From: Escherichia coli
GTDB lineage: Bacteria > Pseudomonadota > Gammaproteobacteria > Enterobacterales > Enterobacteriaceae
Assembly (NCBI RefSeq): GCF_003018255.1
Contig: NZ_CP027440.1
Strand: one strand, 5' to 3'
Length of the DNA: 64,000 nucleotides
Every line of letters starts with the position of its first letter. Position 1 is the stretch's first letter. The notes below the pieces were generated by a model. It was not told the DNA's origin. It worked only from the letters and a program-made list of their open reading frames with translations, and made no database searches. A program made the translations under genes and the position numbers. This document shows, piece by piece, positions 20,762-25,423 of the stretch.

Positions 20762-20849
20762 AAAAAAAACCTGCGCATCCGCGCAGGTTGGTGCAAGAGA
20801 CAGGGTACGAAGAGCGTACCGAATAATCTCACCAATCAATACCTCTGGG
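20762..20849 (-). ncRNA. omrA: OmrA small regulatory RNA (OmpR-regulated, Hfq-dependent)
   Basis: 88-nt minus-strand sequence beginning CCCAGAGGUAUUGAUUGGUGAG and ending in a CCUGCGC...GCGCAGG hairpin plus U8. Confidence 0.9.
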
Positions 20850-20963: not shown

Positions 20964-21045
20964 AAAAAAAACCTGCGCATCTGCGCAGGCTGGTGTAATT
21001 CATGTGCTCAACCCGAAGTTGACTTCACCTATCAATACCTCTGGG
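20964..21045 (-). ncRNA. omrB: OmrB small regulatory RNA, paralog of OmrA
   Basis: 82-nt minus-strand sequence beginning CCCAGAGGUAUUGAUAGGUGAAG and ending in a terminator hairpin plus U8; it shares 5' and 3' ends with omrA. Confidence 0.9.
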
Positions 21046-21258: not shown

Positions 21259-22290
21259 ATGGCGACCATAAAGGATGTAGCCCGACTGGCAGGCGTTTCA
21301 GTCGCCACCGTTTCCCGCGTCATTAATAATTCACCCAAAGCCAGCGAAGCTTCCCGGCTTGCTGTGCATAGTGCAATGGAGTCTCTTAGCTATCACCCGA
21401 ACGCCAACGCCCGTGCGCTGGCGCAGCAGACCACTGAAACGGTCGGTCTGGTCGTTGGTGATGTTTCCGATCCGTTTTTCGGTGCAATGGTGAAAGCGGT
21501 CGAACAGGTGGCTTATCACACTGGTAATTTTTTATTGATTGGCAACGGTTACCACAACGAACAAAAAGAGCGTCAGGCCATTGAGCAACTGATCCGCCAT
21601 CGCTGTGCTGCGTTGGTCGTCCATGCCAAAATGATCCCGGATGCCGATTTAGCCTCATTAATGAAACAAATGCCCGGTATGGTGCTGATCAACCGTATCC
21701 TGCCTGGCTTTGAAAACCGTTGTATTGCTCTGGACGATCGTTACGGTGCCTGGCTGGCTACGCGTCATTTAATTCAGCAAGGTCATACCCGCATTGGTTA
21801 TCTGTGCTCTAACCACTCTATTTCTGACGCCGAAGATCGTCTGCAAGGGTATTACGATGCCCTTGCTGAAAGTGGTATTCCGGCCAATGACCGGCTGGTG
21901 ACATTTGGCGAACCAGACGAAAGCGGCGGCGAACAGGCAATGACCGAGCTTTTGGGACGAGGCAGAAATTTCACTGCGGTAGCCTGTTATAACGATTCAA
22001 TGGCGGCGGGCGCGATGGGCGTGCTCAATGATAATGGTATTGATGTACCGGGTGAGATTTCGTTAATTGGCTTTGATGATGTGCTGGTGTCACGCTATGT
22101 GCGCCCGCGTCTGACCACCGTGCGTTACCCAATCGTGACGATGGCGACCCAGGCTGCCGAACTGGCTTTGGCGCTGGCGGATAATCGCCCTCTCCCGGAA
22201 ATCACTAATGTCTTTAGTCCGACGCTGGTACGTCGCCATTCAGTGTCAACTCCGTCGCTGGAGGCAAGTCATCATGCAACCAGCGACTAA
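21259..22290 (+). CDS. galR: Galactose operon repressor GalR (LacI family)
   Basis: 343 aa; N-terminal HTH MATIKDVARLAGVSVATVSRVINN. Confidence 0.93.
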   Translation: MATIKDVARLAGVSVATVSRVINNSPKASEASRLAVHSAMESLSYHPNANARALAQQTTETVGLVVGDVSDPFFGAMVKAVEQVAYHTGNFLLIGNGYHNEQKERQAIEQLIRHRCAALVVHAKMIPDADLASLMKQMPGMVLINRILPGFENRCIALDDRYGAWLATRHLIQQGHTRIGYLCSNHSISDAEDRLQGYYDALAESGIPANDRLVTFGEPDESGGEQAMTELLGRGRNFTAVACYNDSMAAGAMGVLNDNGIDVPGEISLIGFDDVLVSRYVRPRLTTVRYPIVTMATQAAELALALADNRPLPEITNVFSPTLVRRHSVSTPSLEASHHATSD

Positions 22291-22296
22291 CCGCAG

Positions 22297-23559
22297 TTAA
22301 AGCAATTCCAGCGCCAGTAATTCTTCAATGGTCTGGCGACGGCGAATCAACCGCGCCTGACCATTATCAAACAGAACTTCTGGTAACAGCGGACGGCTGT
22401 TGTAGTTGGATGACATTGATGCGCCATATGCCCCTGTATCATGCAGTACCAGATAATCACCTGCCTTCACTTCCGGCAAGGCGCGGGTTTCGACATTTCC
22501 CCCTTCCTGCTGGGTAAAGACATCGCCCGATTCACATAACGGCCCGGCGACGACGGTTTCCACCGTTGGTGCGTGTTCCAGAGAACGACCATCAGCTGCC
22601 AGGGCACTGATATGGTGGTAACTACCGTACATTGCCGGGCGCATCAGATCGTTGAACCCGGCATCAACCAGCACAAAGTGGCGGCTACCCATTTGTTTGA
22701 CGCTCCGCACTTGAGTAATTAATACGCCAGACTGCGCTACCAGAAAGCGACCCGGTTCAATTTCCAGTTTCACAGGGTGGCCCAAATGGCGGGCGATTTG
22801 CTGACGCGCGGCATTCCACAGACCATAATAATGCTCGGTATCAACCGCCTCTTCACCCTGTTGATAAGGAACAGAAAGCCCACCGCCCGCAGAAATAGCC
22901 TGTAAATCCTGACCGAATTCGAGGACCTGACGCACCATAGCACCACATACCTGTTCCAGATGGGCATAATCGACGCCAGAACCAATGTGCATGTGAATGC
23001 CGACCAGCTGTAGATGATGACGTTGTATCACGTCCAGTGCGGCGGGCAGATCGGTGTACCAGATACCGTGCTTGCTGTTTTCGCCACCGGTATTGGTTTT
23101 TTGGCTATGCCCGTGACCAAACCCCGGATTAACACGCAGCCATACCCGATGCCCTGGCGAAACCTGACCCAGTTGGTCGAGCATATCAACAGAACCCGCA
23201 TTCACCGGAATTTGCAATTCACTGACGCGTTCAAGCGTCGCCTGATCGATAACATCTGCCGTAAAAACAATATCATCAGGGTGCGTTTGCGGATTGTAAC
23301 CCGCCGCCAGTGCACGCTCTATTTCGCCTAACGAGACGGAATCCACTTTCACGCCCTGCTCACGCATTAAGCGCAAAATATGAATATTGGAACAGGCTTT
23401 CTGTGCGAAGCGCACCACATCAAACTGTTTCAGCGCTGCAATCTGCCGACGAATAATTTGCGCATCGTAGACCCACACCGGGCAGCCAAATTCTGCGGGC
23501 AAACGCAGCAGATTTTCGGCGGTGAGATCGGTATCAGTGCTGAACAGTGAATGTGGCAT
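22297..23559 (-). CDS. lysA: Diaminopimelate decarboxylase
   Basis: 420-aa PLP-dependent decarboxylase, divergent from lysR. Confidence 0.93.
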   Translation of the reverse strand: MPHSLFSTDTDLTAENLLRLPAEFGCPVWVYDAQIIRRQIAALKQFDVVRFAQKACSNIHILRLMREQGVKVDSVSLGEIERALAAGYNPQTHPDDIVFTADVIDQATLERVSELQIPVNAGSVDMLDQLGQVSPGHRVWLRVNPGFGHGHSQKTNTGGENSKHGIWYTDLPAALDVIQRHHLQLVGIHMHIGSGVDYAHLEQVCGAMVRQVLEFGQDLQAISAGGGLSVPYQQGEEAVDTEHYYGLWNAARQQIARHLGHPVKLEIEPGRFLVAQSGVLITQVRSVKQMGSRHFVLVDAGFNDLMRPAMYGSYHHISALAADGRSLEHAPTVETVVAGPLCESGDVFTQQEGGNVETRALPEVKAGDYLVLHDTGAYGASMSSNYNSRPLLPEVLFDNGQARLIRRRQTIEELLALELL

Positions 23560-23680
23560 AACAAACTCCAGATAAGTGCTTTTTTATGATTACGCCACAT
23601 CATAAAAAGAATAAAAAATATCGATTTATGTCGAGTCTATGCAAAAATGATATGGATTACCGGATTGCGAGAGAGCGCTA

Positions 23681-24616
23681 ATGGCCGCCGTTAACTTACG
23701 TCATATTGAAATTTTTCATGCGGTAATGACCGCCGGAAGCCTGACTGAGGCGGCACACCTGCTACACACCTCACAGCCAACTGTCAGCCGCGAACTGGCG
23801 CGCTTTGAGAAGGTGATCGGGCTGAAATTGTTTGAGCGCGTACGTGGACGATTGCATCCTACCGTGCAAGGACTGCGTCTGTTTGAAGAAGTGCAACGAT
23901 CCTGGTACGGACTGGATCGCATTGTCAGCGCCGCAGAAAGTCTGCGCGAGTTTCGCCAGGGAGAACTGTCTATTGCCTGCCTGCCGGTCTTTTCGCAATC
24001 TTTTTTACCGCAGCTCCTGCAACCCTTTCTGGCACGTTATCCCGATGTCAGCTTAAATATCGTGCCCCAGGAATCACCGCTACTTGAAGAGTGGCTCTCG
24101 GCCCAGCGTCATGATTTAGGACTCACGGAGACACTCCATACGCCTGCGGGAACAGAACGTACCGAATTACTCTCTTTAGATGAAGTGTGTGTGTTACCTC
24201 CGGGCCATCCGCTGGCGGTAAAAAAGGTATTAACGCCGGATGATTTTCACGGTGAAAACTACATCAGCCTTTCCCGTACTGACAGCTATCGCCAGTTGCT
24301 GGATCAATTGTTTACTGAGAATCAGGTTAAACGACGCATGATCGTAGAAACCCACAGCGCCGCGTCAGTCTGCGCAATGGTACGGGCGGGGGTAGGTGTT
24401 TCGGTGGTTAACCCGCTCACCGCACTGGATTATGCGGCAAGCGGTTTAGTGGTACGGCGGTTCAGTATTGCGGTTCCGTTCACCGTCAGCCTGATCCGCC
24501 CCCTGCACCGCCCGTCATCAGCGCTGGTTCAGGCGTTTAGTGAGCATTTACAAGCGGGATTACCGAAACTGGTCACTTCTCTTGACGCTATTTTGTCGTC
24601 AGCTACGACAGCATAA
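23681..24616 (+). CDS. lysR: LysR-type activator of lysA
   Basis: 311 aa; LTTR-type HTH ([24 protein letters not shown]). Confidence 0.93.
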
Positions 24617-25295
24617 AAGCGACAGCATCCTCGGCATGGATCGCCGCAGTATCAAACACAGGCAGAACACTGCGCTCTTCTGGCACCAGTAAACCAATTT
24701 CCGTACAGCCAAAAATGACACCCTGTGCGCCCTGTTCTGCAAGGCGAGCAATCACTTGCGCATAATAAGTGCGTGACGCTTCGGTAAATTGCCCCAGACA
24801 CAGTTCTTCAAAAATAATCTGATTAATTTTCGCCCGTTTATCCGCTTCAGGAATGAGACAGTTGATGGAAAATTGTTCCGTCAGCCGCCCGCGATAAAAA
24901 TCCTGTTCCATGGTGTAACGCGTACCCAGCAGCGCCACACGAGTCATTCCAGCCCGGATAATTGCACGTCCAGTGGCATCCGCTATGTGTAAGAAAGGCA
25001 GAGAGCAACGAGACTCAATGGCATCCGCCACTTTATGCATCGTATTGGTGCATAACACAATACCTTCTGCGCCCGCCCGCTGTAAGCCAAGCGCCGCCTC
25101 AGCCAGAATATCCCCGGTTTTGTCCCACTCACCGCGACGCTGGCACTCTTCTATTTCATGAAAATCGACGCTATGTAGCAGCACTTGCGCAGAGTGAAGC
25201 CCACCAAGCCGCTGTTTAATGCCTTCATTTATCAGACGATAGTAAGGAATAGTGGATTCCCAGCTCATTCCTCCCAGCAAACCAATTGTTTTCAT
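24603..25295 (-). CDS. ygeA: Asp/Glu/hydantoin racemase-family amino-acid racemase
   Basis: 230 aa; N-terminus [15 protein letters not shown] typical of Asp/Glu racemases; 3' end overlaps the lysR 3' end. Confidence 0.88.
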
Positions 25296-25384
25296 TCCTC
25301 TCTCCTGATGTGTGTTACCGCAACAAGGCTGAATAAGGAACGAGACAAACGCCTCAACGGCCAGGTGCCTAATCTCTATTAACG

Positions 25385-25417
25385 AAAAAAGGGCCGGATG
25401 TACAGCACATCCGGCCC
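25385..25417 (-). terminator. Rho-independent terminator of araE
   Basis: On the minus strand, hairpin GGGCCGGATGT-loop-ACATCCGGCCC followed by T6. Confidence 0.75.
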
Positions 25418-25423
25418 GTGAAA

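What the first reader, a model, noticed from the sequence alone, without database searches (positions are those of the whole stretch)
24603..24616. Convergent lysR and ygeA overlap at their 3' ends; racemase sits beside the lysine genes
The last 14 nt of lysR (plus strand) and ygeA (minus strand) are shared, so transcripts must overlap antisense with no room for a terminator between them. The position of a broad-type amino-acid racemase next to lysA and lysR may reflect a functional link to diaminopimelate or lysine metabolism.
Basis: partly seen in the sequence, partly recalled or inferred. Interest (0 to 1): 0.28.

Follow-up and report, generated by a model that had tools for sequence, protein, structure and literature searches.

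The report
Known lysR–ygeA tail-to-tail gene overlap
Two well-known E. coli genes on opposite strands, lysR and the racemase gene ygeA, really do share their last 14 bases, but this is an ordinary, already annotated overlap whose transcript overlap is published, and the racemase's position beside the lysine genes is a lineage-specific accident, not evidence of a lysine function.

Summary
lysR (23681-24616, +) and ygeA (24603-25295, -) overlap by 14 nt. RefSeq annotates K-12 MG1655 the same way, and the junction is present in 5423 of 5426 complete E. coli genomes.

It is not unusual. E. coli has 58-75 convergent CDS overlaps, depending on the annotation. The inference that the transcripts overlap is already supported:
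- lysR-ygeA is one of 165 convergent 'excludons' called from 58 RNA-seq data sets (NAR 2025).
- A bicyclomycin-sensitive (Rho) termination region on the lysR strand peaks about 134 nt past the lysR stop, inside ygeA (eLife 2021).

No intrinsic terminator-like site lies downstream of either gene.

The overlap length drifts among relatives: a 4-nt gap in E. albertii, overlaps of 4, 14 or 26-29 nt in other Enterobacteriaceae, and an inserted transporter gene in one. The shared protein tails are not conserved.

The metabolic reading is not supported. Only the Enterobacteriaceae loci have lysR and lysA next to a YgeA homolog (9 of 80 sampled; the other 71 do not). YgeA is a characterised, very slow broad-spectrum racemase that prefers homoserine. 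It is arabinose-induced and partly co-transcribed with araE.

Verdict: real, ordinary, already known.

The parts
23681..24616 (+). lysR CDS (LysR, activator of lysA), 311 aa, stop TAA at 24614-24616
   Evidence: ORF listing. NCBIfam PRK11013 equivalog, 591 bits, aligned to residues 1-308, so the last 3 residues lie beyond the family model. RefSeq annotation.
24603..25295 (-). ygeA CDS (PLP-independent amino acid racemase YgeA, also called EcL-DER), 230 aa, stop TAG at 24605-24603
   Evidence: ORF listing. NCBIfam PRK10200 equivalog, 509 bits. PDB 5ELL/5HQT at E=2e-149. C197 is invariant in 46 homologs.
24603..24616 (.). 14-nt tail-to-tail CDS overlap, CTACGACAGCATAA. It covers LysR residues 308(part)-311 plus stop, and YgeA residues 227(part)-230 plus stop.
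   Evidence: The lysR TAA lies on the complement of YgeA's conserved Phe-Met codons (TTTATG), seen in the alignment.
24617..24750 (+). 3' extension of lysR transcription running antisense into ygeA, up to the peak of a Rho termination region (MG1655 2980090 = window 24750). The method gives coarse resolution.
   Evidence: PMC7815308 supplementary file 2: -BCM 73 reads upstream and 17 downstream, +BCM 146 and 129, Rho score 3.79, p=1.8e-6, classed antisense to ygeA. The RNA here is C-rich and G-poor, with C/G 1.4-1.8. No intrinsic terminator-like site.
25381..25417 (-). araE intrinsic terminator (12-bp stem, 8 G-C pairs, T6 run) between araE and ygeA. Partial read-through feeds ygeA.
   Evidence: Scan. 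Sequence identical to K-12 across the hairpin and T run. ygeA is reported as '50% cotranscribed with araE' and arabinose-induced 7-fold in Salmonella (PMC8341724, citing Stringer 2014).
25424..26842 (-). araE CDS (arabinose:H+ symporter), upstream of ygeA on the same strand
   Evidence: tblastn and annotation.
22297..23559 (-). lysA CDS (diaminopimelate decarboxylase), divergent from lysR and on the same strand as ygeA and araE
   Evidence: NCBIfam TIGR01048, 487 bits. Annotation.

Best explanation
This is an ordinary convergent (tail-to-tail) gene overlap in the E. coli chromosome.

How it arose: in the ancestor of the Enterobacteriaceae, ygeA, which lies downstream of araE, came to abut lysR with no spacer. 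Since then each gene's stop codon has drifted within the other gene's dispensable C-terminal tail. In E. coli this gives 14 shared bases.

How transcription ends: there is no intergenic DNA, so neither mRNA can end between the genes.
- lysR transcription runs into ygeA antisense and is stopped there by Rho. This step is shown by published data.
- araE-ygeA or ygeA transcription runs into lysR antisense and is presumably also stopped by Rho or by polymerase collision. This step is inferred.

The overlapping RNA ends make the pair an 'excludon' by the coverage definition. No regulatory consequence has been shown.

Why the racemase is there: its position next to lysR and lysA is a lineage-specific rearrangement without functional meaning. 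YgeA is a slow, broad-spectrum racemase that prefers homoserine, and it is expressed with the arabinose transporter gene araE.
For: Geometry, gene identity and annotation.

Commonness: E. coli has 75 convergent overlapping pairs (PMC4161906), or 58 in an older annotation. Only 20% of the genes in those pairs have a predicted Rho-independent terminator (PMC2174442).

No intrinsic terminator-like site lies downstream of either gene. The small hairpin at the junction has no U-tract and is not conserved.

Rho termination of + strand transcription occurs about 134 nt past the lysR stop (PMC7815308 supplementary file 2). Transcript overlap was seen in at least 50% of 58 RNA-seq samples (PMC12288877).

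Drift of the junction:
- 4-nt gap in E. albertii.
- 4-nt overlap in two Enterobacter sp.
- 14-nt overlap in E. coli, Citrobacter FP75 and Superficieibacter.
- 26-29-nt overlap in Mangrovibacter, E. cloacae DSM 26481 and C. werkmanii.
- An MFS transporter gene inserted between the two genes in Enterobacter sp. Ag1.
- A ygeA nonsense allele in one E. coli strain that removes the overlap.
- LysR tails differ between genera: SSATTA, DRPTTA, HPQTKA, QNVL, ILDG, GEP, GNPPA, LRKA.

Synteny: lysR and lysA flank the YgeA homolog only in the 9 Enterobacteriaceae loci among the 80 sampled, and in none of the other 71. The 134 neighbours taken from 70 of those 71 loci fall into 143 Pfam families with no recurrent partner.

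Enzyme and regulation.
Against: - The tight junction itself (4-nt gap to 29-nt overlap) persists in 8 of the 9 Enterobacteriaceae loci sampled outside E. coli. That could mean selection for compactness or for antisense interplay, not pure drift.
- The pair appears in a published excludon list, and that paper argues such pairs are regulatory.
- No 3' end or Rho region was recorded for the - strand inside lysR in the one data set I could read, so termination of ygeA transcripts is inferred, not shown.
- The genome sample was capped at 80 loci and lacks Salmonella and Klebsiella.
- I could not read the primary YgeA papers, so whether lysine or DAP were assayed rests on secondary sources.
Confidence: 0.85

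Rival explanations
1. Functional excludon. The convergent overlap is a regulatory device. Arabinose-induced read-through from araE into ygeA and on into antisense lysR interferes with lysR expression and hence with lysA activation, through polymerase collision or RNase III cleavage of the RNA duplex. Conversely, lysR transcription dampens ygeA.
For: - lysR-ygeA is listed among the 165 convergent excludons of E. coli MG1655.
- ygeA is induced 7-fold by arabinose and partly co-transcribed with araE.
- There is no terminator on the - strand between ygeA and the lysA promoter region.
- The spacer-less junction persists in most Enterobacteriaceae sampled.
- The - strand RNA around the junction folds somewhat better than shuffles, z=-2.1.
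Against: - Inclusion in the list rests on coverage overlap only. No mutually exclusive expression, dsRNA or RNase III data specific to this pair were found (no supplements held).
- lysR and lysA are absent from the arabinose differential-expression tables in Salmonella.
- The overlap length and sequence are not conserved, and the junction is broken or separated in some lineages.
- Read counts around the Rho region are low (73 and 17 reads), which indicates weak lysR transcription.
Confidence: 0.1
2. Metabolic link. ygeA sits beside lysR and lysA because the racemase acts on lysine, DAP or a related intermediate and belongs functionally to the lysine pathway.
For: - The homolog RacX of B. subtilis prefers lysine, arginine and ornithine.
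- YgeA is broad-spectrum. Its best substrate, homoserine, comes from aspartate semialdehyde, the branch point shared with DAP and lysine (established pathway knowledge).
- The linkage is kept in most Enterobacteriaceae sampled.
Against: - None of the 71 loci outside Enterobacteriaceae has LysA or a LysR ortholog within about 5 kb, and there is no recurrent neighbour.
- The genes are convergent, so they are not co-transcribed.
- Regulation follows AraC and arabinose.
- YgeA is catalytically very poor, with kcat/Km 0.76 M-1 s-1 on homoserine.
- The reported physiological phenotype concerns homoserine, and growth is rescued by Met, Thr or Ile, not by lysine.
- DAP epimerisation in E. coli is carried out by DapF, which belongs to a different fold family (established knowledge).
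Confidence: 0.04
3. Annotation artefact: one of the two reading frames is extended wrongly, so there is no true overlap.
For: Nothing specific. The last residues of LysR fall outside the family model, and the tails are poorly conserved.
Against: - Stop codons are unambiguous, unlike start codons. Both frames are open to the stated stops.
- The YgeA family model aligns to the last residue, 230 of 230.
- The crystallised protein chains cover residues 1-230.
Confidence: 0.01

Closest known systems
Convergent (tail-to-tail) overlapping gene pairs of bacteria, as catalogued for E. coli (PMC4161906; PMC2174442)
   Same: Two real protein-coding genes on opposite strands with a short overlap limited to the stop codons and a few C-terminal codons. 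The overlap is created by movement of stop codons. Most such genes lack Rho-independent terminators.
   Different: Nothing material. 14 nt is longer than the commonest 4-nt class, and relatives show 4-29 nt.
Excludons: overlapping transcription of neighbouring opposite-strand genes (ExcludonFinder map of E. coli MG1655, PMC12288877)
   Same: lysR-ygeA is explicitly listed as one of the 165 convergent excludons. The neighbouring pair galR-lysA is listed too.
   Different: For this pair only coverage overlap is documented. The defining functional outcome, mutually exclusive expression with RNase III processing, has not been shown.
Rho-dependent termination of transcripts that run antisense into a convergent neighbour (Adams et al. 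2021, PMC7815308)
   Same: A bicyclomycin-sensitive drop in + strand coverage about 134 nt past the lysR stop, classed as antisense to ygeA. The untranslated RNA there is C-rich and G-poor.
   Different: Only the lysR side is documented. The ygeA side is inferred.
Bidirectional intrinsic terminators between convergent genes
   Same: The same genomic situation: convergent genes that need termination in both directions.
   Different: There is no intergenic space and no G+C-rich hairpin flanked by A- and U-tracts. The 5-bp hairpin at the junction has its U/A runs on the wrong sides and is not conserved.
Asp/Glu/hydantoin racemase family (PF01177): YgeA/EcL-DER of E. coli and RacX of B. subtilis
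   Same: The window protein is YgeA itself: equivalog match, and E=2e-149 to PDB 5ELL and 5HQT.
   Different: None. The lysine-preferring member is RacX, not YgeA.

Membership tests
Convergent overlapping gene pair | Two adjacent protein-coding genes on opposite strands whose 3' ends share nucleotides | tested here: met
   lysR ends at 24616 (+) and ygeA ends at 24603 (-), sharing 14 nt. RefSeq annotates the same.
Convergent overlapping gene pair | Both ORFs are genuine genes, not spurious antisense ORFs | tested here: met
   Equivalog-level NCBIfam matches for both. Solved structures exist for YgeA.
Excludon | Transcripts of the two neighbouring genes overlap in vivo | tested here: met
   Not testable from sequence. 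Met by published data read here: the pair is listed in at least 50% of 58 RNA-seq samples (PMC12288877), and + strand transcription extends to about 24750 (PMC7815308).
Excludon | Mutually exclusive expression of the two genes, with RNase III processing of the duplex | not testable with these tools
   No pair-specific data found. The supplements of PMC12288877 are not held. lysR and lysA are absent from the arabinose differential-expression tables in Salmonella.
Bidirectional intrinsic terminator | G+C-rich hairpin flanked by an A-tract upstream and a U-tract downstream, so that it works on both strands | tested here: not met
   No terminator-like site on the + strand in 23400-25600, or on the - strand below 24603. 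The junction hairpin 24589-24615 has a 5-bp core, no 3' U-tract on either strand and no excess stability on the + strand, z=-0.2.
Rho-dependent terminator (lysR side) | Read-through increases when Rho is inhibited by bicyclomycin | tested here: met
   Published table: Rho score 3.79, p=1.8e-6 at MG1655 2980090 (+), which is window 24750. C/G ratio of 1.4-1.8 in the first 140 nt after the stop.
Rho-dependent terminator (ygeA side) | Read-through increases when Rho is inhibited by bicyclomycin | tested here: inconclusive
   No - strand entry at MG1655 2979000-2979999 in the same tables. ygeA is weakly expressed without arabinose, so absence from the table is not informative.
Lysine/DAP biosynthesis gene cluster (as a home for ygeA) | Conserved gene neighbourhood with lysine genes across distant taxa | tested here: not met
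   Only the 9 Enterobacteriaceae loci among the 80 sampled have LysR and LysA nearby. The other 71 have neither. No Lys-pathway family recurs among 134 neighbours.
Lysine/DAP biosynthesis gene cluster (as a home for ygeA) | Co-transcription or co-regulation with lysA or lysR | tested here: not met
   ygeA is convergent to lysR, so they cannot share an mRNA. Its expression follows araE and arabinose. LysR-dependence itself was not tested.
Lysine/DAP biosynthesis gene cluster (as a home for ygeA) | Enzyme acts preferentially on lysine, DAP or their precursors | not testable with these tools
   Secondary sources give homoserine as the preferred substrate (Km 171 mM) and call YgeA a homoserine racemase. 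The primary papers are not held.
Asp/Glu racemase family (PF01177), YgeA equivalog | Full-length match above the curated cutoff, with a conserved catalytic Cys | tested here: met
   PRK10200 at 509 bits against a cutoff of 417, aligned 1-230 of 230. Close homologs carry PF01177. C197-T198-E199 are invariant in 46 homologs.

The most novel reading that the evidence does not exclude
The all-minus-strand run araE-ygeA-(antisense lysR)-lysA, with no intrinsic terminator between ygeA and lysA, lets arabinose-induced read-through transcription collide with or silence lysR. It might even continue into lysA. Either way, sugar availability would be coupled to control of the last step of lysine synthesis through a genuine excludon mechanism.
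Probability: 0.06. Interest if true: 0.45.

Novelty: already known. Interest (0 to 1): 0.08.

Why it matters
It matters little. The overlap is in every reference annotation, the transcript overlap and the Rho termination are in published genome-wide tables, and the racemase has been crystallised and assayed.

The useful outcome is negative: gene neighbourhood here should not be read as functional association, because the linkage is restricted to one bacterial family and the genes are convergent.

If the low-probability excludon reading were true, it would be a concrete case of cross-talk between the arabinose regulon and lysine biosynthesis in the best-studied bacterium. It could be tested with simple reporter constructs.

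Tried and rejected
1. Intrinsic or bidirectional terminator at the junction: rejected. There is only a 5-bp hairpin without a U-tract, and it is not conserved.
2. A structured or known RNA at the junction: no Rfam family matches there. The only window hits are OmrA, OmrB and tRNA-Gly.
3. The 9-nt direct repeat CGACAGCAT (24606-24614 and 24620-24628) as a footprint of a duplication that created the overlap: rejected as probable chance. About 0.09 such pairs are expected in 221 nt, the two copies are in different reading frames, and the repeat is absent from Citrobacter and Superficieibacter.
4. A conserved neighbourhood for distant YgeA homologs that might hint at function: none found. The top family, Peptidase_M15 (D-Ala-D-Ala dipeptidase), occurs in only 4 of 70 loci.
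5. Reading the primary YgeA papers (PMID 28894939, 36214408) and Stringer 2014 (PMC3911152): not held. I relied on secondary citations.
6. Pair-specific details in the ExcludonFinder supplements and the Dar & Sorek Rho 3'-end tables: not held.
7. A - strand Rho region or Term-seq 3' end inside lysR: none listed. One apparent hit was a numeric coincidence.

Full report
**What the window is**

The 2.1 kb around the finding matches 5423 of 5426 complete E. coli genomes at 95-100% identity. The gene order is galR (21259-22290, +), lysA (22297-23559, -), lysR (23681-24616, +), ygeA (24603-25295, -), araE (25424-26842, -), then kduD and kduI. All four central ORFs reach equivalog-level NCBIfam scores: GalR 735 bits, LysA 487, LysR 591 and YgeA 509. 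The YgeA product matches the crystallised E. coli protein (PDB 5ELL, 5ELM, 5HQT) at E=2e-149.

**The observation**

It is correct to the base.
- lysR ends ...GCT ACG ACA GCA TAA at 24616.
- ygeA, read on the minus strand, ends ...TTT ATG CTG TCG TAG at 24603.
- The shared stretch is CTACGACAGCATAA, 14 nt.

RefSeq annotates the same geometry in K-12 MG1655 (lysR 2979021-2979956, ygeA 2979943-2980635). The 94-nt junction is present at >=95% identity in 5423 genomes. An annotation artefact is excluded. Stop codons are unambiguous, and the YgeA family model and the crystallised chains run to residue 230.

**Is it unusual?**

No.
- A survey of E. coli counted 663 overlapping adjacent pairs, of which 75 are convergent (PMC4161906).
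- An older survey counted 58 convergent overlaps. Only 23 of the 116 genes involved (20%) had a predicted Rho-independent terminator (PMC2174442).
- In this window the next convergent junction, galR/lysA, has a 6-nt spacer. In the closest annotated strain, three further convergent junctions have 31-40 nt.

Spacer-poor convergent junctions are therefore the local norm.

**Termination and transcript overlap**

The consensus scan finds no intrinsic-terminator-like site on the + strand anywhere in 23400-25600, and none on the - strand below 24603.

The junction contains an imperfect hairpin (24589-24599 / 24605-24615). It is not a terminator:
- Its core is 5 bp.
- The U/A runs lie on the wrong sides for a terminator on either strand.
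- The + strand RNA is no more stable than shuffles, z=-0.2.
- The stem is destroyed in E. albertii and Citrobacter.

The - strand RNA folds somewhat better than shuffles, z=-2.1, but has no U-tract.

Published experiments fill the gap.
- Adams et al. 2021 (PMC7815308, supplementary file 2) list a Rho termination region on the + strand peaking at MG1655 2980090, classed as antisense to ygeA. Reads were 73 upstream and 17 downstream without bicyclomycin, and 146 and 129 with it. The Rho score is 3.79 and p=1.8e-6. With the offset 2955340, this is window 24750, about 134 nt past the lysR stop. The method uses 800-nt windows, so the position is approximate.
- The RNA there is C-rich and G-poor, with C/G 1.4-1.8, as expected for a Rho substrate.
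- ExcludonFinder (PMC12288877) lists lysR-ygeA, and also galR-lysA, among 165 convergent pairs whose RNA-seq coverage overlaps in at least 50% of 58 MG1655 data sets.

No 3' end or Rho region is listed for the - strand inside lysR. Termination of ygeA transcripts is therefore inferred.

**How ygeA is expressed**

A canonical intrinsic terminator follows araE: a 12-bp stem with 8 G-C pairs and a T6 run at 25417-25381 on the - strand. It is identical to K-12 across the hairpin and T run. No promoter-like site was found on the - strand between it and ygeA.

In Salmonella, ygeA is induced 7-fold by arabinose. It is described as '50% cotranscribed with araE' (citing Stringer et al. 2014) and falls 10.7-fold in an araE deletion (PMC8341724). 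ygeA therefore belongs transcriptionally to the arabinose regulon. lysR and lysA do not appear in that study's differential-expression tables.

**Comparative anatomy of the junction**

A profile of 46 diverse YgeA homologs retrieved 80 loci from species-representative genomes. Nine of them are Enterobacteriaceae with lysR and lysA next door. With E. coli itself, the junction varies as follows:

| Organism | Junction |
|---|---|
| E. albertii | 4-nt gap (LysR stops six codons earlier) |
| Two Enterobacter sp. | 4-nt overlap |
| E. coli, Citrobacter sp. FP75, Superficieibacter | 14-nt overlap |
| Mangrovibacter, E. cloacae DSM 26481, C. werkmanii | 26-29-nt overlap (YgeA extended by 4-7 residues) |
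| Enterobacter sp. Ag1 | 1373-nt gap |

In Enterobacter sp. Ag1 the gap holds an inserted MFS transporter gene, whose stop lies 1 nt from the lysR stop. One E. coli strain (2023CK-01341) carries a nonsense allele that shortens YgeA to 221 aa and leaves a 13-nt gap.

The LysR tails differ between genera (SSATTA, DRPTTA, HPQTKA, QNVL, ILDG, GEP, GNPPA, LRKA). The last three E. coli LysR residues lie outside the family model. The alignment shows that the lysR TAA sits on the complement of YgeA's conserved Phe-Met codons (TTTATG -> CATAAA). Any LysR frame that reaches that point must therefore stop there.

This is the pattern expected from neutral stop-codon drift at a spacer-less junction. It is not the pattern of a conserved overlap.

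**The racemase and lysine**

None of the other 71 loci has a LysA homolog or a LysR ortholog within about 5 kb. These include Yersinia, Serratia, Brenneria, Budvicia, Providencia, Vibrio, Shewanella, Rheinheimera, Firmicutes, Actinobacteria and others. The nearest upstream and downstream ORFs at 70 of these loci (134 proteins) hit 143 different Pfam families. The commonest, Peptidase_M15, occurs 4 times. Gene context therefore gives no support for a lysine or DAP role.

Biochemically, YgeA (also called EcL-DER) is a PLP-independent racemase of the Asp/Glu racemase family, with Thr/Cys catalytic residues. Reported values for L-homoserine are Km 171 mM, kcat 0.13 s-1 and kcat/Km 0.76 M-1 s-1. 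Reviews call it a homoserine racemase, while the B. subtilis homolog RacX prefers Lys, Arg and Orn (PMC8142540). A 2022 study, as summarised in PMC12838360, links YgeA to L-/D-homoserine metabolism, with growth defects rescued by Met, Thr or Ile.

The only link to lysine is that homoserine and DAP share aspartate semialdehyde as a precursor (pathway knowledge). DAP epimerisation itself is done by DapF, which has a different fold (own knowledge).

**Mechanism and rivals**

- Best explanation (confidence 0.85): an ordinary convergent overlap maintained by drift. lysR transcripts are terminated by Rho inside ygeA (shown). araE-ygeA transcripts are terminated inside lysR (inferred). The lysine neighbourhood has no functional meaning.
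- Rival 1 (0.10): a genuine excludon that couples arabinose-driven araE-ygeA transcription to lysR and lysA. It is attractive because araE, ygeA and lysA are all on the minus strand, with lysR as the lone opposing gene and no intrinsic terminator between ygeA and lysA. It rests on coverage overlap alone, and the non-conserved junction argues against it.
- Rival 2 (0.04): a lysine or DAP function for YgeA.
- Rival 3 (0.01): annotation artefact.

**Verdict**

The feature is real, correctly located, ordinary and already known. Interest is low.

Noticed in passing
window 22290-22297, and about 22731 (+): The other flank of the lysA-lysR unit is just as tight. The galR and lysA stops are separated by 6 nt. 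Published tables list a Rho termination region on the + strand at MG1655 2978071 (about window 22731), antisense to lysA, with Rho score 7.3. galR-lysA is also in the excludon list.
   Followed up: partly
window 24606-24614 and 24620-24628; hairpin 24589-24615: An exact 9-nt direct repeat, CGACAGCAT, spaced 14 nt apart, straddles the overlap, together with an 11-nt imperfect inverted repeat. Both are specific to E. coli and E. albertii and are probably chance.
   Followed up: yes
L082 1268-1933 (E. coli 2023CK-01341); L002 2797-2802 (E. albertii): Natural alleles remove the overlap. A C-to-A change (CCTCGG -> CCTAGG) truncates YgeA to 221 aa in one E. coli strain, leaving a 13-nt gap. E. albertii LysR stops six codons early, leaving a 4-nt gap.
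   Followed up: yes
L006 5857-7071: In Enterobacter sp. Ag1 a 404-aa MFS-type transporter gene is inserted between ygeA and lysR. Its stop lies 1 nt from the lysR stop, so a new tight convergent junction has formed.
   Followed up: partly
window 32053-32126 (-): tRNA-Gly(CCC) (glyU) lies directly between yqeG and actS/xdhA. This strain therefore has an empty glyU site, with no P4-like island such as the one carried by strain 2014C-3338. The 29500-34500 segment is contiguous in only 1406 of 5423 genomes.
   Followed up: partly
window 25426 versus 25381-25417 (-): A Term-seq 3' end is listed 131 nt upstream of the ygeA start (MG1655 2980766), which falls at the araE stop codon. That is about 40 nt upstream of the U-tract of the predicted araE terminator hairpin. 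The discrepancy is unexplained.
   Followed up: no
window 20762-20849 and 20964-21045 (-): The sRNA genes omrA and omrB lie upstream of galR (Rfam RF00079, 96.6 and 86.1 bits).
   Followed up: no
Loci L010-L081 (neighbours of distant YgeA homologs): D-Ala-D-Ala dipeptidase (Peptidase_M15) is the most frequent neighbour of YgeA-like racemases outside Enterobacteriaceae (4 of 70 loci). This is a weak hint of a D-amino-acid or cell-wall context, not a lysine one.
   Followed up: no
window 24450-24650 (-): The minus-strand RNA spanning the ygeA 3' end and antisense lysR folds better than shuffles (-72.7 kcal/mol, z=-2.1, 5 of 200 shuffles as good). It has no terminator-like U-tract. Its significance is unknown.
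   Followed up: no
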